Assembly (NCBI GenBank): GCA_050633885.1
Contig: JBOEHK010000002.1
Coordinates: 853,504-917,503, forward strand
Direction: 5' to 3'
DNA length: 64,000 nucleotides
Origin: Cellvibrionaceae bacterium
GTDB lineage: Bacteria > Pseudomonadota > Gammaproteobacteria > Pseudomonadales > Cellvibrionaceae
Position numbers and translations under genes: made by a program. The notes below the pieces were generated by a model that was given only the letters and a program-made list of their open reading frames with translations, was not told the DNA's origin and did no database searches. Below are positions 17,204 through 41,574 of this stretch, piece by piece (the stretch's first letter is position 1; every line of letters starts with the position of its first letter).

Positions 17204-17315
17204 TTGATTCTTACCGCTAGCTTTCAAACTCAATAAGATTATCTGTTCTTCATCTAAAAGATTACAAAAACACGGATGTGTTTAATCAATAATAAATATA
17301 ACAAGAGAGGTGTCT

Positions 17316-18410
17316 ATGGATGTCAACTCAAAAATGATTCCTTTGGAATTGCACCCAATGGGATTTGTTGAAGCGTTTACACATTTTGGTGCGGACCTAG
17401 ACCAACTATTAGAAAAAACGCATATTAATCGAAATATGTTGGGCGCTAAAGGCGTAAAAATCTCATATCGACAACAATCTCAGTTAATCTCTAACGGTAT
17501 CTCGTTATGTAATCAGCCTGGTTTAGGATTGCTCGTGGGGCTGTATATGGATTGGAGTTATAACGGTACTGTCGGTTCAGTTGTTCACTGCAGCCCTAGT
17601 TTGAGGGAAGCTGGAGCGGCGATGCGTCGATATATTGTTATCGCCCAACCCTACTATGCAATGTATGTTGGTGAGCCCAATGTCTACATTGACGAAAATC
17701 AACAGCTGGTTAACCCCTTACGTTTTTTTGTGAATGAATCAGAAGACAAGGCTTTGTTTGAATTTGAGCTTGAGTATCGTTTAGCCGTGACATTAAGATT
17801 AATTGATGAATGTGGTAATAAAAATATCGATGATCCTTCAGTTCATCTTTACATTGATAGAAAAAAACCGTTGCATTCACACCTTTATGAAAAACTACCA
17901 GTGACAACAATTTCATTTGATTGTGAGCAAACGGCTATTTCAAGTCACTATTCTTTCTTTACTGAGACATGGCGAGAATTAAGACGCCCTAATTTTGATC
18001 GTCTTATGGCACAGTGTGAACAAGAACTGTCAGCAGCCAATGTAGAAACTTCTTTTTCCGCAAAAGTACGTTGGCATGTAGGTTTGTATTTTAATGAACA
18101 GGTCGGTCTAGAAACGATTGCTGGTTATTTATCAATGACTCCTAGAGCGCTCACACGAAAATTAGCGCTAGAGGGAACGAGCTTTAGAAATATTGTCCAC
18201 GAAGTGAGAATGGAATTGACGGCATTTCATTTACGTTCTTCTACTTTAAGCGTTGACCGAATTTCTGAGATTATGGGATTTTCAAGTCCATCAAGTTTGC
18301 GCAGAGCGGTTAAAAATTGGAGTGGAGAGACGGCAGGGCATCTAAGGTCATCTTCTGGTGGTGTTACTTCATCTGACGGGTTCAGTCAGTCTAGAGCTCC
18401 AATGCACTGA
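17316..18410 (+). CDS. AraC family transcriptional regulator
   Basis: C-terminal double HTH: LETIAGYLSMTPRALTRKLALEGTSFRNIVHEVRMELTAFHL...ISEIMGFSSPSSLRRAVKNWSG. ATG at 17316 lies behind an agagagg RBS; the track starts at GTG 17310. Confidence 0.85.
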   Translation: MDVNSKMIPLELHPMGFVEAFTHFGADLDQLLEKTHINRNMLGAKGVKISYRQQSQLISNGISLCNQPGLGLLVGLYMDWSYNGTVGSVVHCSPSLREAGAAMRRYIVIAQPYYAMYVGEPNVYIDENQQLVNPLRFFVNESEDKALFEFELEYRLAVTLRLIDECGNKNIDDPSVHLYIDRKKPLHSHLYEKLPVTTISFDCEQTAISSHYSFFTETWRELRRPNFDRLMAQCEQELSAANVETSFSAKVRWHVGLYFNEQVGLETIAGYLSMTPRALTRKLALEGTSFRNIVHEVRMELTAFHLRSSTLSVDRISEIMGFSSPSSLRRAVKNWSGETAGHLRSSSGGVTSSDGFSQSRAPMH

Positions 18411-18500
18411 TGACGTTCATCATCTGTGGGAATAGTTTGAATATTGTTTAATGATAAACATTGAAAAATAAAAAGAGACTATAAGAAATACTAAAAGACT

Positions 18501-19616
18501 ATGAAAAATTTAAAAAATATAGGGATCATTGGTTCTATTGCTGCTTTGTGCCTCATTGTTGTAGGGGTCGTCGTAATCCCTAGTGTTATTCAGGAAAAAA
18601 AATTAGCACATATAAAAGAATTCGTCTCTGATAAAAATTCAGAAACCAATAACATTGCGGAAGAGTGGGATTGGAATAAATTTTCGAATAAAGAAATTAA
18701 TACCGCTATTCAGAAGGCGGAAAATCGGGGCAAAGAAAATAAAGAAGAAAGTCATAATGAAGGAGCTTTTGAATTTGATGTGGTCGTTCTCTATTCTGCA
18801 TTAGCGACAGTAGGAATAGATGATAATGGAGAAGTCATTGTCGATAGCAAAGCTTTAGAGGCATTAGAAAATGCGTTTTCGACTCTGCCAGATGAGTTGA
18901 GTGATTCCGAAATGGAGGAGCTTTTACAGTTAATCAAAACAGGTTTGCCGGGAGTAGCGGGAGAACAAACAGCCGAGGTAGTAGATCGTTTTCAGCGATA
19001 TAAAATAGCAGAAAAAGATTTTAACTCGGTTATGCCGGAACCCAAAAATGTTGATGAAGCTTTAGCGCTGTTTGATAGAAAAGTTGCTTTACGTGAATCC
19101 ATTTTGGGTCTAGACGTGGCAGATAAATTATATTCGCAAGAGCAGGCACAATCGCGTCACATGTTGAAATTAATGGCGATTAGCGGCGACAAAACGTTAA
19201 GCAATGAGGAAAAGAAGGCTCAAATAGAAGCGTTTAATGCCGAAAGTGATTTGCTCATTAATAACTATTCGATGAAAAACCCACGTGATGAAGACATGGT
19301 GGAAAATAATGTGGTTATTTTGAGACAGTTGGGGGTCGATGAAACGAAAATATCAGCATATAGAATGGAACATTTAGGGGAAGAGAAAGCGTCTTTATTT
19401 ATTCAAGAAGAAGAAAATAAAAGAAATAAAAATATTATCTGGGCTGAAAGATATGCCAAATTTGTAAAAGAAAAGCAACAAATTATGTCAGCTGAATTAT
19501 CACAGGTAGACAAAAATGCTCAAGTCGAGGCTTTGTTAAGAGAGCATTATGATGCGTCTGAGTTAGAAAAAGCTCGCTTATATGATCAAAGCCAAGGAAA
19601 TGTGACTAAAGGATAG
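18501..19616 (+). CDS. lipase-specific foldase (Lif/lipase chaperone) family protein, TM-anchored
   Basis: N-terminal TM. Collinear by eye with ORF 31308..32432 (ALENAFSTLPDELSDSEMEELLQLIKTGLPGVAGEQTAEVVDRFQRYKIAEKDFN vs ALENGFMSLGPDLSQEAMSELQDLIRIGLPGEAGEQAANILENYYQFRLAEVDFN). Also LG.DVA..L(Y/F)..E.AQ and LS.EEKK motifs. Confidence 0.65.
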   Translation: MKNLKNIGIIGSIAALCLIVVGVVVIPSVIQEKKLAHIKEFVSDKNSETNNIAEEWDWNKFSNKEINTAIQKAENRGKENKEESHNEGAFEFDVVVLYSALATVGIDDNGEVIVDSKALEALENAFSTLPDELSDSEMEELLQLIKTGLPGVAGEQTAEVVDRFQRYKIAEKDFNSVMPEPKNVDEALALFDRKVALRESILGLDVADKLYSQEQAQSRHMLKLMAISGDKTLSNEEKKAQIEAFNAESDLLINNYSMKNPRDEDMVENNVVILRQLGVDETKISAYRMEHLGEEKASLFIQEEENKRNKNIIWAERYAKFVKEKQQIMSAELSQVDKNAQVEALLREHYDASELEKARLYDQSQGNVTKG

Positions 19617-19916: not shown

Positions 19917-19947
19917 TAAAAAAACCGAGGCAAGCTTCGGTTTTTTT
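19917..19947. terminator. bidirectional rho-independent terminator
   Basis: A8-ccgagg-caag-cttcgg-T7. Lies between convergent lif-like and oxidoreductase genes. Confidence 0.75.
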
Positions 19948-19988
19948 ATGGACTAAACTATCGGCTAAAATAAAAAGAAGAAGCCAAA

Positions 19989-21786: not shown

Positions 21787-22007
21787 TTGCCATCTCTTTG
21801 CGAATAGTTTTTGGTAGGTAGGTGCTTAGTTTTAAATTGTCATTAGAGGCTGGCTATGATCCCTTATATAGGGTTAATTATCTATCATTTAGATTGTAAA
21901 TAACTGTTTGTGCTTATATTTTTAGATTAAAAATTCTGCTATATATATCTGCAAATCTCTATTTGTCACCTAATCCAATAATAAATTCTAATAATAAGGC
22001 AAGGCTT

Positions 22008-24626: not shown

Positions 24627-26321
24627 ATGTTGAAAATATATTCTGGGAGTTGCTCTCACCTAATATTCAAAGTTTTTTCTTTAATAACTGTAATTAGTTT
24701 AATGAGCGTACTGTTCGTTACTAACTCATTTGCCTTTTCCAAAAAACATTATAAAGCCGACACAGTTGAAACAGAATTTGGCCCCGTGCAAGGTGTTCCA
24801 ACTTTTTATGGAACAAAATACTTGGGGCTTCCTTATGCGGCTTCTCCGGAAGGTGATTTAAGATGGCGTGCGCCAGTCGATCCAGAAATTTGGACTACTC
24901 CGCTAGTCGCAGATACATTTGGTCCGAACTGTCCACAAACGGCTTCACCATTTGGTTTGCCGAGTGTTACAGAAGATTGTTTGTCATTAAATATTTATCA
25001 ACCACGAGATTTTTATTTAAGAAAACATTCTCGCGGTTCTTTTTCTTTGTTTCGAGATGCTCGATATTCACAAAAATTTTCTAAACGATTAAAACCTGTG
25101 ATGGTTTGGATTCATGGCGGCGCTTTTCAATACGGCGAAGGGCAAGATTGGGACCCCGCAAAATTAGTTAAGCAGGGTGTTGTCGTTGTAACATTAAATT
25201 ATCGATTGGGCGCACTGGGTTTTTTAGCTCATCCTGAATTATCAGAGAGCTCTCCAAATGGTGTGTCGGGTAATTACGGTATTCTCGACCAGCAAAAAGC
25301 ATTGCGTTGGGTAAAAAATAATATTGTACGTTTTGGCGGTGATCCAGATAACGTCACAATATTTGGCGAATCAGCTGGAGGTTTAAGCGTACATACGCAT
25401 TTAGTTTCCCCAGAATCAGAAAGTTTATTTCATCGTGCGATTATTCAAAGTGGCGCTTACGCATTAGCGCCGCCGGAGTTGTCAACGTGGGAATTTTTAG
25501 GCACTGGCATTGCAGCGAACATGGGTTGCTCAGAACAAGTCACTGATGATGTTGCTGATTGTTTAAGACATTTATCGGTTGAAGACATTTTAAATGGACA
25601 AGATCCAGGAGCAGTGGGTTATTTACCCAATGTAGATGGACTTACATTGCCCATGACAATAATTGGAGCATTGCAAACCGGACAGTTTCATCGTGTACCT
25701 GTTATTCAAGGGAGTAATAATGATGAATACACGTTGTTTACTTCGTTGTTATTTGAGTTAGCCGGTACACCCATCACAGAGGCATTTTATCCAACCGCAA
25801 TCAATATTGGTTTAGGAATTCCCCAAGAAGCGATTCCATTGGTAACAGCACAATATCCATTAGAAAACTATGACACACCCGCACAAGCATTATCTGCTAT
25901 CGGTACGGATGTATTATTTGCTTGCCCTGCACAAACCTCAGCGCAATTATTATCACAATATGTTCCCACTTATAGTTATGAATTTAACGATAAAAACGCG
26001 CCACAAATTTATTTGCCCTCGGTCAGTTTTCCCTACGGCGCTTATCATGTAGCGGAAGTTCAATATTTAATGGAGCCTAAAAATCCATTCCCTATGGAAC
26101 CGTTAAATAGAAAGCAGCGACGGCTATCGAGGCAGATGGTTAATTACTGGACGAGCTTTGCTCGCTTTGGTTTACCGTTGCATCATGCAGCGCCTTTCTG
26201 GAACTCGTACGATGTGAATTCACAAACCGTACAATCCTTGCAACCACCGCGTATAAATTCCACCAGCGATTTTAATCTTCGCCACAAATGTGATTTTTGG
26301 GCTGGCTTAATGACTCAATAA
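24627..26321 (+). CDS. carboxylesterase/lipase type B family, secreted
   Basis: Signal peptide, WIHGGAF oxyanion region, FGESAGG nucleophile elbow. Confidence 0.9.
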   Translation: MLKIYSGSCSHLIFKVFSLITVISLMSVLFVTNSFAFSKKHYKADTVETEFGPVQGVPTFYGTKYLGLPYAASPEGDLRWRAPVDPEIWTTPLVADTFGPNCPQTASPFGLPSVTEDCLSLNIYQPRDFYLRKHSRGSFSLFRDARYSQKFSKRLKPVMVWIHGGAFQYGEGQDWDPAKLVKQGVVVVTLNYRLGALGFLAHPELSESSPNGVSGNYGILDQQKALRWVKNNIVRFGGDPDNVTIFGESAGGLSVHTHLVSPESESLFHRAIIQSGAYALAPPELSTWEFLGTGIAANMGCSEQVTDDVADCLRHLSVEDILNGQDPGAVGYLPNVDGLTLPMTIIGALQTGQFHRVPVIQGSNNDEYTLFTSLLFELAGTPITEAFYPTAINIGLGIPQEAIPLVTAQYPLENYDTPAQALSAIGTDVLFACPAQTSAQLLSQYVPTYSYEFNDKNAPQIYLPSVSFPYGAYHVAEVQYLMEPKNPFPMEPLNRKQRRLSRQMVNYWTSFARFGLPLHHAAPFWNSYDVNSQTVQSLQPPRINSTSDFNLRHKCDFWAGLMTQ

Positions 26322-30738: not shown

Positions 30739-30960
30739 ATGAAAGAAATCATCATTAACAAAGAGCCAGTCGAATTATTTAAGATTTTAAAGTTTGAAGG
30801 TTTAACCTCAACTGGTGGCGAAGCCAAATTATTAATTGGTGACGGGCAAGTATTGGTCAACGGAGAAGTAGAAACACGGAAAAGCAGAAAGATGGTGGCA
30901 GGCGATACCATCACATTCGCGAATGAAACATTTACACTTAAGCTTGATGAGGAAGCTTAA
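30739..30960 (+). CDS. ybcJ: S4-domain RNA-binding protein, YbcJ family
   Basis: 73 aa: LFKILKFEGLTSTGGEAKLLIGDGQVLVNGEVETRKSRKMVAGDTITF. Confidence 0.8.
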   Translation: MKEIIINKEPVELFKILKFEGLTSTGGEAKLLIGDGQVLVNGEVETRKSRKMVAGDTITFANETFTLKLDEEA

Positions 30961-31024: not shown

Positions 31025-31307
31025 CATCTGTTAATGGAGAATCCTTTGTTAATGAAAAATCCTTGCACTGAGAGTGTTTGATACTAACTTTAAAGAAACA
31101 GAGTTTTAAACGGCTCTGAGATAAAAGTCTCATCTATTCACGAATATACCCCAATTTTCATATCATAGAACACTTTTTTGGGTTTACTCTGAGAAGTGGG
31201 TTGTTTATGCTTCTTAAATACAGCTCCTCGTTTTATGACTCAAATGCCATAAAACATAAAAATTGCTATAAAAAAGCGCCATGAAAAATAAAAAATGGAG
31301 AAATCCA

Positions 31308-32432
31308 ATGAAAAAATCTGTATTGATTTCTAGTTTTTTGACGGTGGTCGTCATTGGTGGCTTGGCATATTGGCTGCTGTCAGATAAGAACGCACCAGGG
31401 TCTATGTCGGCTGAGGTGGTGAACAATCAAGATAAAAATCCCAATGCTATTGCAAATAAATGGCAATGGGAAAATTTTTCCAGCGATAAGTCCGTAGCCA
31501 ACTCTGATGCAAAAAAAACGGAAACCAAAACCAAAACGGAAAAGAAACCATCTGATCTAGAGGGCCAAGTATCTTACGATGTAATAGAAATCTATAATCT
31601 TTTACAGTCCATCACACTTGATGAAACCGGTGGTGTAATACCTGATGAAACCGCAAAGCAAGCGCTAGAAAACGGCTTCATGAGCTTGGGACCCGATCTT
31701 AGTCAGGAGGCAATGTCTGAGCTACAAGACTTGATTCGCATTGGCTTGCCAGGTGAAGCAGGAGAACAAGCCGCTAATATTTTAGAAAACTATTATCAAT
31801 TTCGCTTAGCAGAAGTGGATTTTAATCAACAGATGGCTAACGCTTTACCTGCATCCGAAGCGGAGTCGGGACAAATGGCTGATACATTATCGGCCGCTGC
31901 TCAATATGAAAAGTTAGTACAGTTACGACGTGATTTTCTCGGTGATGATGTAGCTAATCAATTATTCGCGGTGGAAGATACGCAAGCAAAACATATGTTT
32001 GCTGCCATTGAAATTCAGCAAAATACTGATTTATCCGACGAAGAAAAACAAAAGCAACTAACGACTTTACAAGCGGAATTAAATAACAACTTAATTTCCT
32101 TGGGACAGTTAGAGCCAGAAGAAGCGGCAACAGAACAAGTGCAGCGCCTGCGTAATCAAGGTGCGCCAAGTGAAGAAATTTACACCGCTCGAGAAGCTAT
32201 TTTAGGAACTGAGAGCGCGCAAGAACTCGCTGCTGCTGATCGTGAAGAGGCTCGATGGCAAAATCGTTTTGAAGGGTTTTGGCAAGCACGCCAAGATGTG
32301 ATGGAAGCCGGATTAGATGAAGCCGAACGTGAACGTCAGCTCTCGCAATTGCTCGATCAGTATTTTAGCCCTGAAGAGCGAGAGCGGGCGCGAGTGACCA
32401 GTATTAATTGGCAAGCGAGAGATTCACAATAA
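31308..32432 (+). CDS. lipase-specific foldase (Lif) family protein, TM-anchored
   Basis: TM VLISSFLTVVVIGGLAYWLL. Lif-like blocks ...LIRIGLPGEAGEQAANILENYYQFRLAEVDF...LVQLRRDFLGDDVANQLFAVEDTQAKHMF..IQQNTDLSDEEKQKQLTTLQAEL. Start chosen at MKKSVL. Confidence 0.7.
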   Translation: MKKSVLISSFLTVVVIGGLAYWLLSDKNAPGSMSAEVVNNQDKNPNAIANKWQWENFSSDKSVANSDAKKTETKTKTEKKPSDLEGQVSYDVIEIYNLLQSITLDETGGVIPDETAKQALENGFMSLGPDLSQEAMSELQDLIRIGLPGEAGEQAANILENYYQFRLAEVDFNQQMANALPASEAESGQMADTLSAAAQYEKLVQLRRDFLGDDVANQLFAVEDTQAKHMFAAIEIQQNTDLSDEEKQKQLTTLQAELNNNLISLGQLEPEEAATEQVQRLRNQGAPSEEIYTAREAILGTESAQELAAADREEARWQNRFEGFWQARQDVMEAGLDEAERERQLSQLLDQYFSPEERERARVTSINWQARDSQ

Positions 32433-32552: not shown

Positions 32553-34139
32553 CTAATAACTTCGCCGTGTTCGCATTAACATCAGCATTAATATCAACCC
32601 AAGAAAAGAAACAAACCAGTAAGGGAAGCGACTGTAAAACGTCGTGCTGGTCTTTCCTTTTTCAGATGCCTGAAAAGGAACATCCAATAAGTAACCTGCG
32701 ATTTCTTGGTGATCTGTTTGTAATAGCGAGCGACCATTAGGCGCTAATACACCACCTAATCCATTATTCATCACATGTACGAGTGGACGACGGTTTTCCA
32801 CACTACGCAACACCGACGCACTCATGTGTTGGTAGGGAACTCGCGTGTTACCAAACCAACCATTGTTCGATTGCACGGTAAAGATATCGCCTCCAGTGAC
32901 GTCGGTGGAGGCGGCGACAAATCGGGGAAAAATAATTTCGAAGCAAATAAACGGCTTAATAGACGCGTTGCCAACATTAAAAATCGTCGGCGCTGAGCCT
33001 GCACTGTATCTGCCGAAAAACTCTCCTAAATAATACCGCGTCCAACGATTAATGCTGTCGGAATTCTCAAACAGAGGCAAATACTCAGCCATAGGAATAC
33101 GTTTTATTTTTTGGTATTTACCCATCGGCTTTCCCGTCTCGTCGAGAAAGGTTGAAGTATTAAAATTCCGCATCCTATCAACGTTTTTTTCTTGTTCGAA
33201 AGATTGAAACAGCAATGAACTTTCCAACTTGGCGACTTGTTTTTGGTAAGCGTCTTTCACAAACGCTTCTGTGTAATATTGTTTATTCCGCAATTCGGGC
33301 CAGATCACGAGCTCAGCTCCAGCCGCTACTAATTGCTCCGTTAAATCCATCTCGATGGGATAGCTTAAACTATAACCGGGGCGAGGGTCAGGTGTGCCAA
33401 TAGTCGGTGGTTCGTTGGTTTGCACCAAGCCTATTTTTAGTGTGTCCCATGACGCCATTTTACTGTCCCAATAATGTAAACTGAGCACACCATAAATAAA
33501 CCAACTAACAATCAGGGCGTATGCGGCCAATGCACTTCGCTGAAAAAATACTGCACGACCGATCAATGCTTGCGCGATGAATACATTGACAATCCCCACA
33601 ATAAAATCCAGACCACTTACGCCAGTAATATCTGTCGCTTGTAATGCCACCAAAAATTCACTTTGTGCATTACCAATCTGCCAGGGAAATAGCGTAGGGT
33701 AAAACGCAAAAACGAGTGCGAGAACAGTAGGAAACGCCCACAAGATAGCGTTATTATTTCGGCCAGTGGGGTTTAGATTTTGGGTCAAATAATGAGTTAA
33801 TGAGGCAACAAGAGCGAATATTTGCGCGCAGTAAAACCAGTAGATCGATGCCAGACCAACACTGTGAATAAACGAATAGGCTCTAAATAGCCGAATAAAC
33901 TCCGCCATCCAATAAGTAGACAAGCCAAAAGCTAAAAGCCCAGTGAGTAGTCCAAACCAGTAAGCTTGCCAAACGCTGCGACACTGTTGCAAGCCAATTA
34001 AAAATGGCACAAAAGCAATCCACCCCAACAAATAAAACTCAGGATATAACGCTGATATAGCAGACAAAATGGCACAGCTTAACGCTGCCACTGGAATCCA
34101 AAAAACAGGATGCGACCAAACTGAAGTCGTTTTATTCAT
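32553..34139 (-). CDS. apolipoprotein N-acyltransferase (Lnt)-like protein, probable paralogue
   Basis: Multi-TM N-domain plus CN-hydrolase domain. Putative triad: E (VIWPEL), K (YQKIKRIPMAEYLP), C (FICFEIIFP). ATG 34139 overlaps the upstream stop in ATGAATAA. Confidence 0.75.
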   Translation of the reverse strand: MNKTTSVWSHPVFWIPVAALSCAILSAISALYPEFYLLGWIAFVPFLIGLQQCRSVWQAYWFGLLTGLLAFGLSTYWMAEFIRLFRAYSFIHSVGLASIYWFYCAQIFALVASLTHYLTQNLNPTGRNNNAILWAFPTVLALVFAFYPTLFPWQIGNAQSEFLVALQATDITGVSGLDFIVGIVNVFIAQALIGRAVFFQRSALAAYALIVSWFIYGVLSLHYWDSKMASWDTLKIGLVQTNEPPTIGTPDPRPGYSLSYPIEMDLTEQLVAAGAELVIWPELRNKQYYTEAFVKDAYQKQVAKLESSLLFQSFEQEKNVDRMRNFNTSTFLDETGKPMGKYQKIKRIPMAEYLPLFENSDSINRWTRYYLGEFFGRYSAGSAPTIFNVGNASIKPFICFEIIFPRFVAASTDVTGGDIFTVQSNNGWFGNTRVPYQHMSASVLRSVENRRPLVHVMNNGLGGVLAPNGRSLLQTDHQEIAGYLLDVPFQASEKGKTSTTFYSRFPYWFVSFLGLILMLMLMRTRRSY

Positions 34140-34875
34140 TGACTGCGCTCTCATCTAGTTTTTCTGGAAAGCGAGCTTGCATATCAAGCAGTGCTTGTTT
34201 TTTTTCCGCTTCAGTGAGGTTGCCATCATTCCGAATTTGCAGACTGGTAGACATCATGATTGCAATGCGTCGCTGATCAAAAAACATTTTTTTTGCGACT
34301 GTTTTGCCTAACAGCTCATCTTGTAATTGAAATAATTCTGCATAGTTTGGAGGCTCGTTAGCCGTTAGTTTATCTTCCGCTAATGTATTCGCGGTATTTT
34401 TTTCCCACCAACGCTGCTCCATTTCTTTGTAATGTTTGAGTGCGGGTAGCAGCGTCATAAATTGCTGGCTCGCGGTTTTGCCAAACTGTTTTTCAAATAA
34501 AAAAGCCATACGCGCCAGTTGTAATTCCAGCAGTTGACCATCCATAACAGCAATGGCTTCCACCATCGCCGACTCCAACGTTGCATCGATTTTCAAATTA
34601 CCCTCTGCGTCGATTTGCAACTCACTCCAAGCGGCTTCAGCGAATGTAAAATCGAGATCGGCAATATCAGCAGGCAAGGGAGCAATCGAAAAGGTTTGAA
34701 CAATGTCGTCGTCGAAACTGTCTGCACTCTGCCACCAAACTAAAGCGCCAACGACCACGGCAAAAACAATGAGAATAATGCGCTGCTGAAACATAGAATG
34801 TTGACTAATGGCGAGTGCTGGAGCCTTATCTGTTGAGGGGGGATCATTGGTAACTAATGGCATCGTAAACCGCAT
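34132..34875 (-). CDS. short Lif-like (lipase chaperone family) TM-anchored protein
   Basis: TM IILIVFAVVVGALVWW. The C-terminal half is collinear with the other two Lif ORFs (LFQLQDELLGKTVAKKMFFDQRRIAIMMSTSLQIRNDGNLTEAEKKQALLDMQARFPEKL). Confidence 0.55.
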   Translation of the reverse strand: MRFTMPLVTNDPPSTDKAPALAISQHSMFQQRIILIVFAVVVGALVWWQSADSFDDDIVQTFSIAPLPADIADLDFTFAEAAWSELQIDAEGNLKIDATLESAMVEAIAVMDGQLLELQLARMAFLFEKQFGKTASQQFMTLLPALKHYKEMEQRWWEKNTANTLAEDKLTANEPPNYAELFQLQDELLGKTVAKKMFFDQRRIAIMMSTSLQIRNDGNLTEAEKKQALLDMQARFPEKLDESAVNE

Positions 34876-35017
34876 AATTAAAAGTGAAAAATGTTGAAGG
34901 TATTGAATCTAAATTCGTTATTGTAGTGTGCAGATTTATTATTGGCTTCATCGTACCAGTCATTTGACACCAGACTTTTCACGAATCAGCACACTTTACC
35001 TTAACTTAGGTGCAAAA

Positions 35018-35062
35018 CTATTAAGTCTCGACAATTTAAGTCTTAACAGTTTAAGTGTTAAC
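35018..35062. repeat. tandem 15-mer x3 (ctattaagtctcgac / aatttaagtcttaac / agtttaagtgttaac)
   Basis: Read directly. Lies in the divergent promoter region between the Lif-like/Lnt-like operon and the hydrolase gene. Confidence 0.9.
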
Positions 35063-35403
35063 AATCCCGTGAAAATTAGCATTACTTAGCTATAACAAAG
35101 TGTATTAATAGAGTATTTGAGTATATTTCAGTGAAACTAACAAACGACTAATCAGCCATTCAAATAGATTTGATACTGGAGTTACCACTTCTACTAAAAA
35201 TTCGGAGGTCGAGCAATATTTGTTCAAAAAAAGATTATCTAGAATATCCCTACAGTCGATTGATAAAAAATAGCAAATACAATCTTTCTGTAATAAATAA
35301 TAAATTAGGTCCCGAATTTCAGCGCTCACAGAGAAGAATAGCAATTCCCAAATCGCTGAGTTTAGGCACTCACTCATTTTGGCTAGAAAAGAAGGGTAAC
35401 AAT

Positions 35404-36096
35404 ATGAATATTAAAAGTTTACTTATTGGCGGCACAGCAATCTTGGCATGCGGCTTGATGGCTTCAACTGCATTTGCAGGCAATCCAAGCGGTGGTAGTA
35501 GCTGCAGCGTCAGCCGTACAACTGGTTCAGGTGCTGTATTTTATGTTCCAAGTGGTGGTAATGGTACTTACAACATCCTAGCTTGGGGTAATGGTACTGG
35601 TGGTGGTTCAAGCACTTACCGTGGTTTATTAGAAGCTGCTGCAGAAGAGTGTGTTTTGGTAGCCGCTGCGACAACTGCTAGCTCAGGAAGTGGTAGAGAC
35701 GTAGAAAGTGCACTTAACCAAGCGAAGAGCCGTTATAGCAGCATCGTTGGTTCAAATCCTAAAGTGTGTACTTCTGGTCACTCACAAGGTGGTGGTGGAG
35801 CTTTCAACGCTGCAAATCGTACGGATGCAGACTGCGTAATTGCGGTTCAACCTGACACTGTTTACACGACTAGTATCTCTCGACCTGTATCAAGCAGCAC
35901 AGATGTTGTTTGTATCTTCAGTACAGGTGATACGTTAGCGCCAGCGCTTCCGTTCAACGCATCAAACTGCCGTCGTAACTCAACTCGTTACTCACAAGAA
36001 ACAACATCGGGTTCTCACTTTGCACCAACATCTGGAACAGGTGGAGCAGCCGGTGCTGAAATGAGAAACTACATCAGAGACTGGTTAGTTAACTAA
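35404..36096 (+). CDS. small secreted alpha/beta hydrolase with cutinase/PETase/dienelactone-hydrolase-type motifs
   Basis: ATG 35404. Signal peptide MNIKSLLIGGTAILACGLMASTAFA. Nucleophile elbow GHSQGGGGAF, acid FSTGDTLAP, histidine SGSHFAPT. The upstream part of track ORF 35170.. is discounted. Confidence 0.65.
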   Translation: MNIKSLLIGGTAILACGLMASTAFAGNPSGGSSCSVSRTTGSGAVFYVPSGGNGTYNILAWGNGTGGGSSTYRGLLEAAAEECVLVAAATTASSGSGRDVESALNQAKSRYSSIVGSNPKVCTSGHSQGGGGAFNAANRTDADCVIAVQPDTVYTTSISRPVSSSTDVVCIFSTGDTLAPALPFNASNCRRNSTRYSQETTSGSHFAPTSGTGGAAGAEMRNYIRDWLVN

Positions 36097-36140
36097 TCAC
36101 TGTTAGTTTTTTGTTTCAATAATTTTTGTTTTAATGAAAG

Positions 36141-36169
36141 CCTCAACCTTTATGGTTGGGGTTTTTTTA
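36141..36169 (+). terminator. rho-independent terminator after the hydrolase gene
   Basis: cctcaacc-tttat-ggttgggg followed by T7. Confidence 0.8.
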
Positions 36170-36225: not shown

Positions 36226-36996
36226 ATGAGCAATATGATCAATGTTGTGGCGATATTTTTGATGAGCGTTGTACTCATTAGTGGCTGCGGCGAACAGCCA
36301 TCATCGGCGAACATTACAGATATAAATACAGATGTAAAAATAAAAAAACCAATAGATGAAAAAAAACACGGTTTTCAATCGCTAGAAGATCGATTTAGTT
36401 ATGCCTATGGTGCTGACTTGGCAGAAAAATTTAAAGCGGAAGGCATTGAATTAAATGTCGATATTCTAGCGACCGCAATGCGAGATGCATTTAAAGGCGG
36501 CGAAATGAAAATGCCTGATGACGAAGTCATCGCTACACTTGCACTTTATCAAAAAATATTTTTGAAGAAGAAAGAAGAACAAAAAGCCATCGCTGCTGAA
36601 AAAAACAAAAAAGAAGGCAAAGTATTTTTAGCTGAAAATGCCAAAAAAGAAGGCGTAGTCATCACAGAAAGTGGCTTGCAGTACAGAGTAATCACAGCCG
36701 GTGATGGCGGCTATAAACCGAAATTTAATGATGAAGTACAAGTGCATTATCGCGCAACGTTTACCGATGGCACCGAATTCGATAGCACTCACAAGCGCGG
36801 TGAGCCTTATAGCGTCAAAGCTAAAATGCTGATTGACGGTTGGGCCGAAGCGCTTCAGCTAATGACAGCAGGCGCCAAATGGGAATTAACGATACCGGCA
36901 GAACTTGCTTATGGCGAAGAAGGCCAGGATCCCTATATCGGACCAAATGCCGTACTGATTTTTGAAGTGGAATTGCTTGAAATTGAAGAGGGATAA
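36226..36996 (+). CDS. fkpA: FKBP-type peptidyl-prolyl isomerase, FkpA/Mip-like lipoprotein
   Basis: Lipobox LISGCG, dimerisation-helix region, FKBP domain GLQYRVITAGDG...[15 protein letters not shown]...[26 protein letters not shown]. Confidence 0.9.
   Translation: MSNMINVVAIFLMSVVLISGCGEQPSSANITDINTDVKIKKPIDEKKHGFQSLEDRFSYAYGADLAEKFKAEGIELNVDILATAMRDAFKGGEMKMPDDEVIATLALYQKIFLKKKEEQKAIAAEKNKKEGKVFLAENAKKEGVVITESGLQYRVITAGDGGYKPKFNDEVQVHYRATFTDGTEFDSTHKRGEPYSVKAKMLIDGWAEALQLMTAGAKWELTIPAELAYGEEGQDPYIGPNAVLIFEVELLEIEEG
36755..36983 (+). repeat. 229-bp direct repeat, left copy (3' end of intact fkpA)
   Basis: Collinear with 39520..39748 at a constant offset of 2765 nt. I count 8 mismatches, all at third codon positions. 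Confidence 0.95.
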
Positions 36997-37255: not shown

Positions 37256-38524
37256 TCATTCCTCGACAGAAAACGGATTTAAAAATTGCCGCTTCCAAAG
37301 CAACTGTCGATCAACTTCATTTAATTCCGCTTCATCACAAACCGATTGCCAGTTTTTCTCAATAATAATTTTTTGATGTTCAAAAATCGCATAGGCTTCA
37401 TCTTTCTTGAGTAAAAAATTTTTCGCAGCAGATAAACATGTTTTGAACTGGCTTAAATTATTTTCGCCAATAATCCGCATAGCTTGACCAGCCTCATTGC
37501 CCAAGCGTCCTTGAGGGCAGATATCATAGGCGGGAGTTAAACTTAAATGTTTTCCATCCCAAAACGCCGCATGGTTTCGGGCATGATCGTCAGTATTGCC
37601 ACATAAAATATTGAACAATAATCGCGAGAACAATTCTTTGAGTGTATCTTTAGGTTCAATAAATCGATGGCGAATAATTTCAGCTAATGTTTCATAACTG
37701 GCGTAGCGCGCCATCATGTCATCTAACCCAAATAAGGTGAGGGCAGAGACCATGGGTTGCCGCGTCCAGTCTTTGCCATTAAATTTCCTATCGAAACGCT
37801 CAATGAGCACAATATCTTTATTGGCTGCTTTCACCATTTTCACTGGCGCAACATTAATGCCGGCCAGTTTTGCCAAGCGCATAGCGATAAATTCCGCTTT
37901 CACCACGCTGTACAAATCATTCGTAGCAGAAAATTTAGCAATATATTTTGTGTCTTTTTCTTCGATTAACGCCTTAGGGCGTGCTCCGCCAATCGAGCTA
38001 CCATGAAAGAGCGCCTGATCTAATTCTGGCCGGAGAGGTATACCTTTCTCAACGCGCTCCGCTGATTGCATCAATTCTTCAATACTGACATTTTTTGCGA
38101 AGCGTGGAATATATTCAGTGGGAGATTGCTGAAAGTCCAAAGCACCAATCCGATCAGAGCCGGACTCTAAAAGGTAGGTCAGTTCATCAAGTGTAGCCGT
38201 ATCGGTATTCGCACCTTTTAAACCGAGTTTTTTATTAATAATCACTCGGCGCCCCCAAGCATCAGGAGCGCCATCACGAATACAACCTGGTATTTTTAAT
38301 CCATTCAAATTAGAAAGCACGCCCGCTTTTAATGGCAACTCAGGTTCGTAGATAGACATAGCTGGCGGAGTATCTTTAATACGCTCCAAATAACTTTTAC
38401 CGTAGTTAAATAAAAGCGCATCGCCATCGGCTTCAAGTTTTCCTGCGACCACAGGTTTTATTTCATTAGGTAGCCAGATCCAGACATAGCTTTCTTTGTA
38501 TTGGTTGTTAGAAGTCATCGTCAA
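37256..38524 (-). CDS. hipA: HipA-family serine/threonine kinase toxin (type II TA)
   Basis: About 420 aa. HGSSIGGARPKA (P-loop-like), CGNTDDHARNHA catalytic loop. 17-nt overlap with the upstream HTH gene. Confidence 0.85.
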   Translation of the reverse strand: MTMTSNNQYKESYVWIWLPNEIKPVVAGKLEADGDALLFNYGKSYLERIKDTPPAMSIYEPELPLKAGVLSNLNGLKIPGCIRDGAPDAWGRRVIINKKLGLKGANTDTATLDELTYLLESGSDRIGALDFQQSPTEYIPRFAKNVSIEELMQSAERVEKGIPLRPELDQALFHGSSIGGARPKALIEEKDTKYIAKFSATNDLYSVVKAEFIAMRLAKLAGINVAPVKMVKAANKDIVLIERFDRKFNGKDWTRQPMVSALTLFGLDDMMARYASYETLAEIIRHRFIEPKDTLKELFSRLLFNILCGNTDDHARNHAAFWDGKHLSLTPAYDICPQGRLGNEAGQAMRIIGENNLSQFKTCLSAAKNFLLKKDEAYAIFEHQKIIIEKNWQSVCDEAELNEVDRQLLWKRQFLNPFSVEE

Positions 38525-38852
38525 CTACCTTCATTTTTTTACGGGCTTTTTGAGGAAGTAGAGCGAGCTTCTCTTCGGTTTCTTTAATGTGTCTCGCCAA
38601 CGTCAATGAAGATGGATCAGCATCGAAAAGATTCACCCCGACAATAGCCGCCACTTCGAACACAGCTCCGATCTCACATTTCAAATCGCCTTTTTCAATA
38701 CGCTGAAGCATACTTCTAGAAATTCCAACTCGTTCAGCTACCTCTTGAGCGCTTAACCGACGCTCTAATCTGGCGGCACGAATGAGCCCCGAGAGAAGCG
38801 TGATCGCTTCTTCGGTATAACGTGAATATGAACGTGTCACTGATTTTGGCAT
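38508..38852 (-). CDS. hipB: XRE-family HTH antitoxin (HipB-like)
   Basis: LSAQEVAERVGISRSMLQRIEKG helix-turn-helix. Lies upstream of hipA and overlaps it. Confidence 0.8.
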   Translation of the reverse strand: MPKSVTRSYSRYTEEAITLLSGLIRAARLERRLSAQEVAERVGISRSMLQRIEKGDLKCEIGAVFEVAAIVGVNLFDADPSSLTLARHIKETEEKLALLPQKARKKMKVVDDDF

Positions 38853-39058: not shown

Positions 39059-39436
39059 ATGAGCGGTGAATTAAATACGATGGACGATCAGATACGTGAA
39101 GATATATTGAATGAAGCTGCAAGAAATTATTATAACGACAAAAATTTGGTTGAAAGATTAAGGCGGCGAGTTAAAAGAAAATTTGGATCACTCGTCGATA
39201 AATCAGAAATCAATGACACAATTATTCTTTCAAAAAACATCTATGAAAGTGTGAAAGCACTTTTGCCTAATTTTACAGAAAGTAATAAAACAGCCTTCGC
39301 TGATCCACAAGACATTAATTATGATTTCCTCGCCAAAGCAGTACACGAAAAATCTCTTTCAAATAAAAATCAGTTTAATCTCGATGATATTCATCAAGTA
39401 GTGAATTGGGTCATTTATTGGGAGTATCTTAGGTGA
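39059..39436 (+). CDS. hypothetical protein
   Basis: 125-aa ORF divergent from hipB. No motif recognised. Confidence 0.4.
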   Translation: MSGELNTMDDQIREDILNEAARNYYNDKNLVERLRRRVKRKFGSLVDKSEINDTIILSKNIYESVKALLPNFTESNKTAFADPQDINYDFLAKAVHEKSLSNKNQFNLDDIHQVVNWVIYWEYLR

Positions 39437-39519: not shown

Positions 39520-39520
39520 C

Positions 39521-39764
39521 AACGTTTACCGACGGCACTGAATTCGATAGCACCCACAAGCGCGGTGAGCCTTATAGCGTCAAAGCTAAAATGCTGATTG
39601 ACGGTTGGGCCGAAGCGCTTCAGCTAATGACAGCAGGCGCCAAATGGGAATTAACGATACCGGCAGAACTTGCTTATGGCGAAGAAGGCCAAGATCCCTA
39701 TATTGGACCAAATGCCGTGTTGATTTTTGAAGTGGAACTGCTTGAAATAGAGAAAGAGAAATGA
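39521..39764 (+). pseudogene. orphan 3' fragment of fkpA (last ~76 codons plus a divergent tail)
   Basis: Encodes [77 protein letters not shown], identical to the FkpA C-terminus. No N-terminal two thirds. Confidence 0.85.
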
Positions 39765-39919: not shown

Positions 39920-40498
39920 TTAACGAGGAAAGAAAATTTCTTGTGTTCTTCCCGTGCGAATTAAGGCAGCCATAAGCGATATAAAGAGGGCAGGATTTTT
40001 TTCTAACACGGCGAGTCGATCTAAATATTCTTTAATATAACCTTTAATTAAGAAAAGAATCATATCGTAGCCTCCCATATCATTTCGTAATCGACGCCAC
40101 AGTGTTGGACAGTTTTGATTCAGCTGGCGGCTTTCCTGTGCTGCAACACCTGCCCAACCATTAGCTTTTAACAATAAAAACATTACTGCTCCTAAGCCAC
40201 CACGCCCCTGCTTGGCACTTTTGCGAATACTTGTGAGCCGACGCTTCACACGCATATCATTTTTTGCTTGAGTCATAATTTTTTTTGTGATTTTGGTAGC
40301 CAAAATCACGGCAATAGATCGCGCTAACCGCTTACCAACTTGTTTTCCTATTAAACGCTGCCCTTTAGTGTTTATAAAGTTCGCCGCCGCATTCGTATTA
40401 ACACTTTCCCATGCCACACCGAGTACTTTCCTTGCAACACAGTCAATTTCAACTGTGTCTATACCATCAGGAAATAGAAGAGCTCCATTCTCGATCAT
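39920..40498 (-). CDS. hypothetical protein; probably the C-terminal part of a gene split by a frameshift
   Basis: The frame is open for 147 nt upstream of its ATG (back to 40645) and overlaps the tail of ORF 40579..41016. Confidence 0.4.
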   Translation of the reverse strand: MIENGALLFPDGIDTVEIDCVARKVLGVAWESVNTNAAANFINTKGQRLIGKQVGKRLARSIAVILATKITKKIMTQAKNDMRVKRRLTSIRKSAKQGRGGLGAVMFLLLKANGWAGVAAQESRQLNQNCPTLWRRLRNDMGGYDMILFLIKGYIKEYLDRLAVLEKNPALFISLMAALIRTGRTQEIFFPR

Positions 40499-40578
40499 AC
40501 TTTGAAGTGTATCTTCAGGTATCAGCGAAACATATTCATCAATGACCGCAAAGACTAGTTGAAATAGAGGATTCTCTG

Positions 40579-41016
40579 CTAAGTTAAGCTCGAAATTAGC
40601 AATGTTTGATACACTAAACTTAACAACAGAGTAAAGAGCGTAGTTTCACCTCCCACAGTCTGAACACCTACAATACCTGAAGCACCAAGACCTTCGGCCG
40701 TGCGCTCTACACCGCTACCTAGTACTTCCCCTTGTCGAATAGTTTGATGATGAATTCCATCAATAACACCCGAAGCAAATGGTGAAACTGCGTCGGCATA
40801 ATTCAAAAATTCGTGGTAGGTTGTTTCGTGTTTCATTGCTCGATAAGAAGGAGTATGGCATCCGAAGTTGCACTCCTGCCATCGTTTTTCTATTTGAGCT
40901 TGCGTTTGAAGAGGGTTAATACTAGAAAATTTAGCTGCGTTATATCCTTGTAAGTATCGTTTGACACCTAGCTCACTAACGAGGTCCCCATTGTGTTCCA
41001 TTGACATATCAGTCAT
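40579..41016 (-). CDS. hypothetical protein; probably the N-terminal part of the same split gene
   Basis: Starts 9 nt after the upstream lipoprotein gene ends. No motif recognised. Confidence 0.4.
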   Translation of the reverse strand: MTDMSMEHNGDLVSELGVKRYLQGYNAAKFSSINPLQTQAQIEKRWQECNFGCHTPSYRAMKHETTYHEFLNYADAVSPFASGVIDGIHHQTIRQGEVLGSGVERTAEGLGASGIVGVQTVGGETTLFTLLLSLVYQTLLISSLT

Positions 41017-41025
41017 CCTTTTTAT

Positions 41026-41574
41026 TTATTGCACCATCATCTTTAAAAAGTCATTTTGCTTTTCATTTACATTTTTTCTTAATCCTTCCGGAGTGTTATA
41101 AACCACAACTCTCTGCGCACTTGCAGTGCTTGGAAAAAATACTTCAATTGTATAGTCTGCCAGGTTTGGCTCAGGCGTTTTAACTTTCGCAAACAATCCT
41201 TGAAACCCTTCTCGATCAACTTCACCAAAATCAATCTTTGCGGATTCCCTTATTTCTCCATCTGGGAGAGAAGATGAGACATGAAGTTTAAGGAAATATT
41301 CCTTTGCGTTTTCTTCATCAAATGTATTGGTATTAGTGGAATGAACAGTTACTAATGATCCCTCATTTGTAATGATGCTTGTATCCTTACCTCCGTACCG
41401 ATTGTCTGCAACTTCAAATGCTTCCCACTCGACGGGTAGCATGAAATCAACTTGAAATCCCGTATCATTTTCCCCTGTAGAGACAGGCTCAGATTCCGGT
41501 TTTGAACACCCAGCAGTAGCGGTGCACAATATAATTAAAAAAAAGAGTAAATTTAACTTGGCAAGATTAATCAT
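41026..41574 (-). CDS. hypothetical lipoprotein
   Basis: Lipobox TATAGCSK after a hydrophobic leader. Confidence 0.55.
   Translation of the reverse strand: MINLAKLNLLFFLIILCTATAGCSKPESEPVSTGENDTGFQVDFMLPVEWEAFEVADNRYGGKDTSIITNEGSLVTVHSTNTNTFDEENAKEYFLKLHVSSSLPDGEIRESAKIDFGEVDREGFQGLFAKVKTPEPNLADYTIEVFFPSTASAQRVVVYNTPEGLRKNVNEKQNDFLKMMVQ

What the first reader, a model, noticed from the sequence alone, without database searches (positions are those of the whole stretch)
32553..36096. Lif-like foldase translationally coupled to an Lnt-like N-acyltransferase, divergent from a compact cutinase/PETase-motif secreted hydrolase
Seen in sequence:
- ORF 34132..34875 has a TM anchor and a C-terminal half collinear with the two longer Lif-family ORFs. 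It ends inside ATGAATAA, which starts ORF 32553..34139.
- ORF 32553..34139 has a multi-TM domain plus a CN-hydrolase domain, with Lnt-like E (IWPE), K (KRIPMAEYLP) and C (FICFE).
- Across a 528-bp divergent region containing a 3x15-nt tandem repeat lies a 231-aa secreted hydrolase. It has GHSQGGGG, GDTLAP and SHFAP.

Established knowledge: Lif foldases normally sit in an operon with family I.1/I.2 lipases, and housekeeping lnt normally follows ybeX/corC. Neither context applies here.

Inference: this may be a dedicated module in which a membrane foldase and an acyltransferase mature, acylate or anchor the neighbouring hydrolase or another exported substrate. I do not know of a described Lif-Lnt pairing.
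Basis: partly seen in the sequence, partly recalled or inferred. Interest (0 to 1): 0.7.

Follow-up and report, generated by a model that had tools for sequence, protein, structure and literature searches.

The report
Foldase-coupled Lnt paralog beside cutinase
A marine bacterium carries a second-type copy of the enzyme that normally adds the last fatty acid to lipoproteins. Its gene is fused in an overlapping pair to a shortened lipase-folding chaperone and always sits beside a small PETase-like esterase, an arrangement conserved in many bacteria and not described in the papers searched.

Summary
ORF 32553-34139 (-) is a complete Lnt-family protein. ORF 34132-34875 (-) is a truncated Lif foldase that overlaps it by 8 nt (ATGAATAA). 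ORF 35404-36096 (+) is a compact secreted relative of the Pseudomonas mendocina cutinase and type III PETases.

The arrangement recurs in every lineage examined. Every Lnt of this clade has a short Lif-like gene directly upstream, usually overlapping it. Each also has a full-length or mid-length Lif nearby (none within reach in L015 and L106, not assessable in L011) and a small secreted esterase, either PmC-type or GDSL. A sister genome carries two such pairs on one contig. Eighty canonical lnt loci have corC/ybeX (59/80) and no Lif (0/80).

The clade keeps the Lnt catalytic E-K-C triad. It never has the Trp equivalent to E. coli W237, which is needed only for transfer to apolipoprotein.

The best reading is an accessory acyltransferase with Lnt-like first-step chemistry and a different acceptor, coupled to a foldase-derived adaptor within an esterase maturation module. 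What it acylates is unknown. I could not check whether a canonical lnt exists elsewhere in this genome. I found no literature on this pairing. It is a new variant of known kinds, of moderately high interest.

The parts
32553..34139 (-). Lnt-family paralog (528 aa; alternative start at 34154). It has an N-terminal multi-TM LNT_N domain, a periplasmic CN-hydrolase domain and a C-terminal TM helix. The catalytic residues are E282, K344 and C399.
   Evidence: Family hits. Residue alignment. Hydropathy. It falls in a clade separate from canonical Lnt.
34132..34875 (-). Truncated Lif foldase (247 aa; NCBI aa starting at 34863). It has a TM anchor at residues 28-52, a linker, and the N-terminal part of the Lif fold (MD1 plus the start of the extended helical domain). 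It lacks the C-terminal ~115 residues of full-length Lifs. It overlaps the Lnt start by 8 nt.
   Evidence: Pfam. Homologues. Profile-profile match. Overlap. Model and fold search. Family of mostly short proteins.
34876..35403 (.). Divergent 528-bp intergenic region. It contains a window-specific 3x15-nt tandem repeat (35021-35065) and a strongly conserved block at about 35170-35240 upstream of the hydrolase.
35404..36096 (+). Compact secreted alpha/beta hydrolase (230 aa) of the PmC / type III PETase lineage. It has a Sec signal peptide and a Gly/Ser tail. The predicted triad is S127 (GHSQGG), D176 and H205. Six Cys residues are invariant.
   Evidence: Homologues and alignment. Profile versus PDB: (2fx5, E 1e-19). 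Model. Fold search: (9hl5, 9k0h and 2fx5 on top).
36136..36166 (+). Terminator-like hairpin (13 pairs) with a T run after the hydrolase gene.
36226..36996 (+). FkpA/Mip-type FKBP peptidyl-prolyl isomerase (256 aa) with a lipobox (LISGC). It is conserved next to the hydrolase in all Cellvibrionales-type loci and in Marinobacter.
31281..32432 (+). Full-length Lif foldase (383 aa, TM anchor), convergent with the Lnt paralog. It is conserved in this position in the related loci that extend far enough (L011 ends before it can be assessed; Alkalilimnicola L015 has none within reach).
   Evidence: Pfam PF03280 at 1.3e-29. Synteny. Match to PDB 2es4_D at 6e-20.
17310..19616 (+). AraC-type regulator (17310-18410) followed by a second full-length Lif (18501-19616). 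In a sister genome this pair flanks a second short-Lif/Lnt-paralog/GDSL-lipase module, which is absent here.

Best explanation
ORFs 34132-34875 and 32553-34139 encode a two-part inner-membrane machine. One part is a truncated lipase-specific foldase: a TM anchor plus the client-binding N-terminal Lif domains. The other is an accessory Lnt-family acyltransferase. Their genes overlap, which suggests translational coupling.

The pair belongs to a conserved periplasmic maturation module for a small, disulfide-rich, secreted cutinase-type esterase. The module also contains a full-length Lif steric chaperone and an FkpA-type prolyl isomerase.

Proposed mechanism:
1. The Lnt paralog takes an acyl chain from a membrane phospholipid onto Cys399, as Lnt does.
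2. It passes the chain to an acceptor other than a diacylglyceryl-cysteine apolipoprotein.
3. The Lif-derived partner supplies or positions that acceptor. The acceptor is most plausibly the Lif-bound esterase or something bound with it.

What is shown: domain identities, intact catalytic residues, loss of the residues linked to the apolipoprotein step, gene overlap, and conserved synteny.

What is inferred: physical complex formation, the esterase being the Lif client, and the identity of the acyl acceptor.
For: - The Lnt architecture and the E/K/C triad are conserved, as are E343, E389, W415 and F416.
- The equivalents of E. coli W237, W148 and Q233 are never W, W or Q in 42 clade members. 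In 34 canonical Lnts they are 27/34, 32/34 and 29/34. W237 is reported as essential only for the transfer step to the apolipoprotein (10.1101/497412).
- The short ORF is a Lif homologue covering only the N-terminal part. It belongs to a family of mostly 180-260-aa proteins: 243 representatives, and 139 of the best 150 are under 300 aa.
- A short Lif lies directly upstream of the Lnt paralog in every lineage examined, and in most of them the two genes overlap. These are the window, L001, L005, L007, L009, L011, L014, L012, L098, L099 and L114; in L015 there is a 62-nt gap.
- Every such locus has a PmC-type or GDSL esterase within about 3 kb. All but L015 and L106 (none found) and L011 (contig ends before it can be assessed) also have a longer Lif.
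- Flanking genes differ between lineages, so the core is kept by selection.
- A sister genome has two paralogous short-Lif/Lnt pairs 10 kb apart on one contig.
- In 80 canonical lnt loci, ybeX is adjacent in 59 and Lif in none. No ybeX lies near any paralog.
- In an NJ tree the Lif-linked Lnts form their own clade.
Against: - No experiment or complex prediction links the proteins physically.
- The hydrolase has no conserved lipobox.
- Its Gly-rich N-terminal tail is equally present in relatives without an Lnt paralog.
- Very close hydrolase homologues in Marinobacter sp. M1N3S26 sit with FKBP only, with no Lif or Lnt within 9 kb.
- Only 6-7 of 42 long metagenomic loci with full-size PmC-like genes have the Lnt paralog or Lif nearby. 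The pair is therefore not obligatory for this esterase family.
- Characterised type III PETases were studied as recombinant enzymes, and the papers I checked by word search never mention a chaperone or foldase.
- I could not show that a canonical lnt exists elsewhere in this genome.
- The NJ tree has no support values.
Confidence: 0.45

Rival explanations
1. The acceptor is a membrane lipid, not a protein. The Lnt paralog would transfer acyl chains from phospholipid to an amine- or hydroxyl-bearing lipid such as phosphatidylethanolamine or a lysophospholipid. This would remodel or protect the cell's own membranes while lipolytic enzymes pass through the periplasm. The short Lif would tie this activity to the presence of the esterase.
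For: - The natural Lnt acceptor is itself a diacylglyceryl-linked primary amine, so a lipid amine is chemically close (established knowledge of Lnt).
- The association holds for two unrelated esterase folds, alpha/beta and GDSL. That fits a generic response to lipolytic cargo better than recognition of one protein's N-terminus.
- No conserved acceptor-like feature was found in the esterases.
- The region is rich in periplasmic lipid-acting enzymes, including a fatty acid cis/trans isomerase.
Against: - No direct evidence.
- It does not explain why the partner is specifically a client-binding fragment of a foldase.
- No bacterial Lnt-family enzyme is known to me to use a lipid acceptor.
Confidence: 0.2
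2. It is simply the organism's housekeeping apolipoprotein N-acyltransferase, and its neighbours are incidental envelope-biogenesis genes.
For: - It passes the NCBIfam lnt equivalog cutoff, 201 versus 132.9 bits.
- NCBI annotates it as Lnt.
- No other lnt lies in the 64-kb window.
- I could not examine the rest of the genome.
Against: - A sister genome has two such genes, 34% identical, on one contig, each with its own short Lif.
- The clade is only about 20% identical to E. coli Lnt and lacks the W237 and W148 equivalents.
- None of the loci has the ybeX context found at 59 of 80 canonical loci.
- The clade is patchily distributed and always co-located with Lif and esterase genes.
Confidence: 0.1
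3. It is a specialised Lnt for a subset of true lipoproteins. Candidates include the lipobox-bearing FkpA-type isomerase encoded next to the hydrolase, or lipoprotein lipases encoded elsewhere.
For: - The window FKBP (LISGC) and the L001 FKBP have lipoboxes.
- An FKBP gene lies near both module types.
Against: - FKBP homologues in L014 and L097 have no lipobox by the simple pattern used. The L007 FKBP also failed the strict pattern, but it does begin MLVLTAACMGGCG, so a variant lipobox cannot be excluded there.
- L015 and L098 have no FKBP nearby.
- Loss of the apolipoprotein-step Trp argues against a diacylglyceryl-Cys acceptor.
Confidence: 0.1
4. There is no catalytic role. The Lnt paralog would serve only as a membrane scaffold or receptor for Lif-family chaperones, or the adjacency would reflect co-regulation only.
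For: Nothing specific. Synteny alone cannot prove catalysis.
Against: - The catalytic triad and surrounding active-site residues are almost invariant across 42 divergent members. That indicates selection for catalysis.
- Start/stop overlap occurs in most lineages.
Confidence: 0.05

Closest known systems
Apolipoprotein N-acyltransferase Lnt (E. coli b0657; NCBIfam TIGR00546)
   Same: - Same two-domain architecture, LNT_N multi-TM plus CN-hydrolase.
- Same catalytic E-K-C triad, and conserved E343, E389, W415 and F416 equivalents.
- Similar hydropathy layout.
   Different: - About 20% identity to E. coli Lnt.
- Separate clade in the NJ tree.
- The W237, W148 and Q233 equivalents are replaced by a clade-specific P-x-P-G-[YF]-S-x-x-Y-P segment.
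- No ybeX/corC context.
- Always preceded by a short Lif gene.
- Up to two copies per genome.
Lipase-specific foldases Lif/LipH/LipB (Pfam PF03280; PDB 2ES4, 9G8U, 6GSF)
   Same: - N-terminal TM anchor and helical periplasmic domain.
- Profile-profile match at 98.3% probability, and the top fold matches are foldases.
- The two long ORFs in the window are ordinary full-length members.
   Different: - The short ORF lacks the C-terminal ~115 residues, that is, the later extended helical domain and the second mini-domain.
- It is co-transcribed with an Lnt paralog instead of following a family I.1/I.2 lipase gene.
- No I.1/I.2 lipase is present in the window.
Type III PETases / Pseudomonas mendocina cutinase PmC, HaloPETase1, dsPETase05 (PDB 2FX5, 9HL5, 9K0H)
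   Same: - G-H-S-Q-G nucleophile motif, WGNGTG oxyanion region and Ser-Asp-His triad.
- Best sequence-profile and fold matches (motif described in PMC13396203).
   Different: - About 45 residues shorter at the C-terminus, so it also lacks the C-terminal disulfide reported for type III PETases (PMC13396203).
- Six invariant Cys residues instead.
- The Tyr reported as essential in type III enzymes (QPY) is an invariant Asp here (QPDT).
- No Pfam hit.
- Activity on any polyester is untested.
Second Lnt homologues in Actinobacteria (Streptomyces Lnt2; mycobacterial Ppm1 Lnt domain), from my own knowledge
   Same: They are precedents for extra or fused Lnt-family proteins whose role is not plain housekeeping N-acylation.
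   Different: Different phylum, no Lif partner and no esterase neighbourhood. I did not test any relationship here.
Lipid-anchored type II secretion substrates (Klebsiella pullulanase PulA; rhombosortase/GlyGly-CTERM proteins such as VesB), from my own knowledge
   Same: They are a functional analogy only. Exported hydrolases are lipid-modified at the inner membrane so that they stay on the cell surface after secretion.
   Different: The chemistry and enzymes differ: the Lgt/Lsp/Lnt pathway acting on a lipobox Cys, or rhombosortase acting at the C-terminus. Nothing here shows that the esterase is lipidated.

Membership tests
Apolipoprotein N-acyltransferase (Lnt) | LNT_N membrane domain plus CN-hydrolase domain, scoring above the family cutoff | tested here: met
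   PF20154 at 1.9e-16, PF00795 at 1.4e-15, and TIGR00546 at 201 bits against a cutoff of 132.9.
Apolipoprotein N-acyltransferase (Lnt) | Catalytic triad Glu-Lys-Cys (E. coli E267, K335, C387) | tested here: met
   E282, K344 and C399 align with the triad. In the clade they are conserved in 42/42, 41/42 and 41/42 members.
Apolipoprotein N-acyltransferase (Lnt) | Residue needed for the second step, transfer to the apolipoprotein (E. coli W237), and the neighbouring portal Trp W148 | tested here: not met
   W237 is Trp in 27/34 canonical Lnts and 0/42 clade members. W148 is Trp in 32/34 and 0/42. The role of W237 is taken from 10.1101/497412.
Apolipoprotein N-acyltransferase (Lnt) | Usual genomic context downstream of ybeX/corC | tested here: not met
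   ybeX is adjacent in 59/80 canonical loci. There is no YbeX homologue in the window or in ten paralog loci.
Apolipoprotein N-acyltransferase (Lnt) | N-acylates diacylglyceryl-Cys apolipoproteins, and is the sole essential copy | not testable with these tools
   Testing this needs the whole genome and biochemistry. The genome scans returned only unrelated canonical loci.
Lipase-specific foldase (Lif, PF03280), short ORF | Significant match to the family model | tested here: inconclusive
   The single sequence scores 24.8 bits against a cutoff of 25.7. Many orthologues carry a precomputed PF03280 hit.
Lipase-specific foldase (Lif, PF03280), short ORF | Homology to bona fide Lifs by profile and by fold | tested here: met
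   hhalign gives 98.3% probability, E 1e-14. The top four Foldseek matches are 2es4_E, 9g8u_B, 2es4_D and 6gsf, although their E-values are weak (0.055-0.98).
Lipase-specific foldase (Lif, PF03280), short ORF | Complete foldase, including the C-terminal mini-domain that clasps the lipase | tested here: not met
   The alignment ends at Lif383 residue 269 of 383. Members of the short family are mostly 180-260 aa.
Lipase-specific foldase (Lif, PF03280), short ORF | Encoded in an operon with a family I.1/I.2 lipase | tested here: not met
   It is followed by the Lnt paralog. No I.1/I.2 lipase was found among the window ORFs scanned.
Type III PETase / PmC cutinase group | G-H-S-Q-G motif, Ser-Asp-His triad, and closest sequence and fold similarity to 2FX5, 9HL5 and 9K0H | tested here: met
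   The motif definition comes from PMC13396203.
Type III PETase / PmC cutinase group | Subsite Tyr (Tyr150 in R75estA numbering) and the C-terminal disulfide | tested here: not met
   QPY is replaced by an invariant QPDT. The C-terminal ~45 residues are absent (features).
Type III PETase / PmC cutinase group | Polyester or PET hydrolysis | not testable with these tools
   This needs an enzyme assay.

The most novel reading that the evidence does not exclude
The short-Lif/Lnt-paralog pair is a lipobox-independent protein lipidation machine. The foldase-derived adaptor would hold a Sec-exported, signal-peptidase-I-processed esterase at the inner membrane. The Lnt paralog would acylate its free N-terminus or another amine from phospholipid, giving a lipid-anchored cutinase or lipase. 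That enzyme would stay on the cell surface or on vesicles at oil or polymer interfaces.
Probability: 0.15. Interest if true: 0.9.

Novelty: new variant of a known kind. Interest (0 to 1): 0.65.

Why it matters
Lnt is regarded as a single-purpose housekeeping enzyme, and Lif as a private chaperone of family I lipases. This work finds a distinct Lnt clade that is consistently paired, by overlapping genes, with a truncated Lif and embedded among cutinase/PETase-like and GDSL esterases.

That points to a second job for Lnt chemistry in the periplasm. It also points to a broader client range for Lif-type foldases.

There is a practical side. Marine PmC/type III PETase-like enzymes are being mined for plastic recycling. 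Their native maturation factors (Lif, FkpA, the Lnt paralog) may matter for expression, localisation or activity, and the papers I checked do not mention them.

The module also offers a route into the open question of how Lif-bound clients are handed on.

Tried and rejected
- Exact-sequence look-ups of the two window proteins found nothing, because gene callers used other starts.
- The first genome-contig scan, with the short Lif alone, found no relatives.
It was useless for finding a second lnt in carrier genomes, but I re-used it as a control set.
- Hydrolase as a lipoprotein: the lipobox-like ILAC in its signal peptide is not conserved. 11 of the 35 aligned sequences have a Cys there, and carriers of the pair such as Gilvimarinus lack it. 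Rejected.
- Gly/Ser-rich N-terminal tail as a mark of Lnt-linked esterases: it is equally present without the paralog. Rejected.
- The 3x15-nt repeat as a conserved regulatory element: it is absent from the sister loci. Rejected.
- Rfam and tRNA scans of the window found nothing.
- Nine literature searches for Lnt with Lif/foldase/chaperone, or PETase/polyesterase with Lif, found nothing relevant.
- The profile of the short Lif against PDB sequences found no significant hit. Only profile-profile and fold comparison showed the relationship.

Full report
**What is there**

The window comes from a Cellvibrionaceae metagenome-assembled genome: an identical protein carries NCBI tag ACRBCS_07890 on a 919,872-bp contig. 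The region contains these genes.

| Coordinates | Strand | Gene |
|---|---|---|
| 30739-30960 | + | small S4_2 protein |
| 31281-32432 | + | full-length Lif foldase, PF03280 at 1.3e-29 |
| 32553-34139 | - | Lnt-family gene: LNT_N, CN_hydrolase, TIGR00546 at 201 bits (cutoff 132.9) |
| 34132-34875 | - | 247-aa ORF with one TM helix |
| 34876-35403 | . | 528-bp divergent gap |
| 35404-36096 | + | 230-aa secreted hydrolase with no Pfam or NCBIfam hit |
| 36136-36166 | + | terminator-like hairpin |
| 36226-36996 | + | FkpA-type FKBP isomerase with a lipobox |

The stop codon of the short ORF and the start codon of the Lnt gene share ATGAATAA. A second full-length Lif (18501-19616) follows an AraC regulator. 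No canonical lnt, no ybeX/corC and no family I lipase were found in the window ORFs scanned.

**The short ORF is a truncated Lif**

On its own it scores 24.8 bits on PF03280, just below the 25.7 cutoff. Forty-three homologues were found at 48-100% identity, many with precomputed PF03280 hits.

- Their profile matches a profile of full-length Lifs at 98.3% probability, E 1e-14. Short-ORF residues 74-241 align with residues 99-269 of the 383-aa Lif.
- The full-length profile in turn hits the Burkholderia glumae foldase 2ES4_D at 6e-20.
- An AlphaFold model (pLDDT 77) shows a TM helix at 28-52 followed by helices.
- The top four PDB fold matches are all lipase foldases, including the isolated MD1 domain of the P. 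aeruginosa foldase, although their E-values are weak.
- An exhaustive profile search finds 243 representatives. Of the best 150, 139 are shorter than 300 aa.

Short Lifs are therefore a family, not an accident of this genome. They keep the anchor and the N-terminal client-binding part, and they lack the C-terminal ~115 residues.

**The Lnt-like protein**

E282, K344 and C399 align with E. coli E267, K335 and C387. E352, E401, W428 and F429 match E343, E389, W415 and F416. The hydropathy layout mirrors E. coli Lnt.

Identity to E. coli Lnt is only about 20%, and 23-27% to canonical-type database hits. Relatives that share its gene context range from 34% to 79%. In a neighbour-joining tree without support values, these relatives form a clade apart from canonical Lnts.

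| E. coli residue | Canonical Lnts with that residue | Lif-linked clade with that residue |
|---|---|---|
| W237 | 27/34 | 0/42 |
| W148 | 32/34 | 0/42 |
| Q233 | 29/34 | 0/42 |

In place of the W237 loop, the clade has a conserved P-x-P-G-[YF]-S-x-x-Y-P segment. W237 is reported to be essential only for the second step, transfer of the acyl chain to the apolipoprotein (10.1101/497412). The sequence thus suggests that thioester formation is retained and the acceptor has changed. That is inference.

**The hydrolase**

About 424 homologues were found; the 120 listed are 67-93% identical, a tighter range than its neighbours show. In 35 aligned sequences the invariant features are GHSQGGGG (S127), D176, H205, WGNGTGG and six Cys residues.

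- The family profile hits the P. mendocina lipase/cutinase 2FX5 at 1.2e-19. It hits HaloPETase1 (9HL5) and dsPETase05 (9K0H) at about 1e-17.
- The AlphaFold model (pLDDT 78) has the same three structures as top fold matches, at E about 1e-13.
- G-H-S-Q-G is the motif described for type III PETases (PMC13396203).
- The window protein is about 45 residues shorter at the C-terminus than full-size type III PETases.
- It has an invariant Asp where type III enzymes have an essential Tyr.

Polyester activity should therefore not be assumed.

**Conservation of the arrangement**

The five-gene core is FKBP <- hydrolase <- | -> short Lif -> Lnt | <- Lif. It recurs with different flanking genes in these places:

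- two sister Cellvibrionaceae lineages (L001-L006);
- a further MAG (L007);
- two metagenomic lineages (L009, L011; in L011 the contig ends before a Lif could be assessed);
- Gilvimarinus sp. F26214L (L014).

Other forms of the module also occur.

- Alkalilimnicola ehrlichii keeps the trio of hydrolase, short Lif (profile E 6.5e-22) and Lnt.
- A Tara Marinobacter contig has a 189-aa short Lif (E 1e-5) overlapping an Lnt paralog. A Lif, an AraC regulator and a full-size type III PETase-like gene are convergent with it, in the order esterase -> AraC -> Lif.
- GC-rich metagenomic relatives (L099-L104, L114) again combine the PmC-like esterase, AraC, Lif, the Lnt paralog and an abutting short Lif-like ORF. 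L106 has the Lnt paralog beside the esterase, but no Lif was detected there.
- One locus (L143) has esterase -> Lif like a classical lipase-foldase operon.
- Sister genome GCA_041156625.1 carries a second module 10 kb away on the same contig. It runs short Lif (256 aa) -> Lnt (583 aa, 34% identical) -> GDSL lipase, then two Lifs and an AraC. In the window only the AraC-Lif end of that module remains.

As a control, 80 canonical lnt loci have ybeX adjacent in 59 and a Lif, this hydrolase or this FKBP in none.

**Limits of the association**

- Marinobacter sp. M1N3S26 has two copies of the compact hydrolase around an FKBP gene, with no Lif or Lnt within 9 kb.
- Of 42 long metagenomic loci with full-size PmC-like genes, only 7 have a Lif and 6 have the Lnt paralog.

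From the Lnt-paralog side the link is invariable in the sample. From the esterase side it is lineage-specific.

**Mechanism**

I consider it most likely (0.45) that the pair is an accessory membrane machine within an esterase maturation module. FkpA and the full-length Lif would fold the disulfide-rich esterase. The short Lif, tethered beside the Lnt paralog, would bind the same client or its complex. The paralog would transfer a phospholipid-derived acyl chain to a non-canonical acceptor.

The identity of the acceptor is open. The idea that it is the esterase itself is weakened in two ways.

- There is no conserved lipobox.
- The Gly-rich N-terminal tail is not specific to Lnt-linked esterases.

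A lipid acceptor, meaning membrane remodelling or self-protection, is a serious rival (0.2). It would explain why unrelated esterase folds share the module. Plain housekeeping Lnt (0.1) is disfavoured by the duplicated pairs, the lost Trp residues, the missing ybeX context and the patchy distribution. It could not be excluded, because the rest of the genome was out of reach.

**Novelty**

Nine literature searches combining Lnt with Lif, foldase or chaperone, and PETase or polyester hydrolase with Lif, returned nothing relevant. Word searches of three recent type III PETase papers found no mention of chaperones, foldases or acyltransferases. Each component belongs to a known family. The coupled short-Lif/Lnt-paralog unit and its tie to PmC-type esterases appear to be undescribed. 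I rate it a new variant of known kinds, with interest 0.65.

Noticed in passing
window 36755-36986 and 39520-39751: A 232-nt direct repeat (96% identical) duplicates the 3' end of the FKBP gene. It brackets hipA (37256-38524), a hipB-like HTH gene (38508-38852) and an unassigned ORF (39059-39436). This looks like an inserted toxin-antitoxin cassette with duplication of its target.
   Followed up: partly
window ~35170-35240: A non-coding block upstream of the hydrolase is nearly identical in the window and two sister loci, although the adjacent short-Lif protein is only about 60% identical. It could be a conserved promoter/operator or leader. No Rfam family matches.
   Followed up: partly
window 19617-19988; L012 6238-10933: A sister genome has a second short-Lif/Lnt-paralog/GDSL-lipase/Lif module between the ADH gene and Lif371. 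The window has only 372 bp there, so the module was lost here or gained in the sister genome.
   Followed up: partly
window 6150-26321: There is a cluster of periplasm-directed lipid and alcohol enzymes. It includes a fatty acid cis/trans isomerase (6150-8510), two PQQ dehydrogenases (13510-15813, 21963-24374), a COesterase-family carboxylesterase (24627-26321), a zinc ADH and a second FKBP. This suggests an ester/alcohol catabolism island around the module.
   Followed up: no
L097 7108-9705 (Marinobacter sp. M1N3S26): Two copies of the compact hydrolase flank an FKBP gene, with no Lif or Lnt nearby. M. lacisalsi also has adjacent tandem copies, judged from locus tags.
   Followed up: partly
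L143 9929-11866: A PmC-like esterase gene is followed about 80 nt later by a Lif gene on the same strand. This is a classical lipase-foldase layout with a cutinase-type enzyme in the lipase position.
   Followed up: no
L004 9115-10314: In one sister assembly the Lnt paralog was called as only 399 aa, although tblastn covers the full 528 residues at 79% identity. This may be a frameshift, an assembly error or a start-calling artefact.
   Followed up: no
window 39920-41574: Three consecutive minus-strand ORFs (192, 145 and 182 aa) have no Pfam match. They lie next to the hipBA insertion.
   Followed up: no
window 677-3844: A 1055-aa ORF has an N-terminal NPHP3_N-like NTPase region and C-terminal Trans_reg_C/BTAD domains, so it looks like a STAND-type transcriptional regulator.
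   Followed up: no
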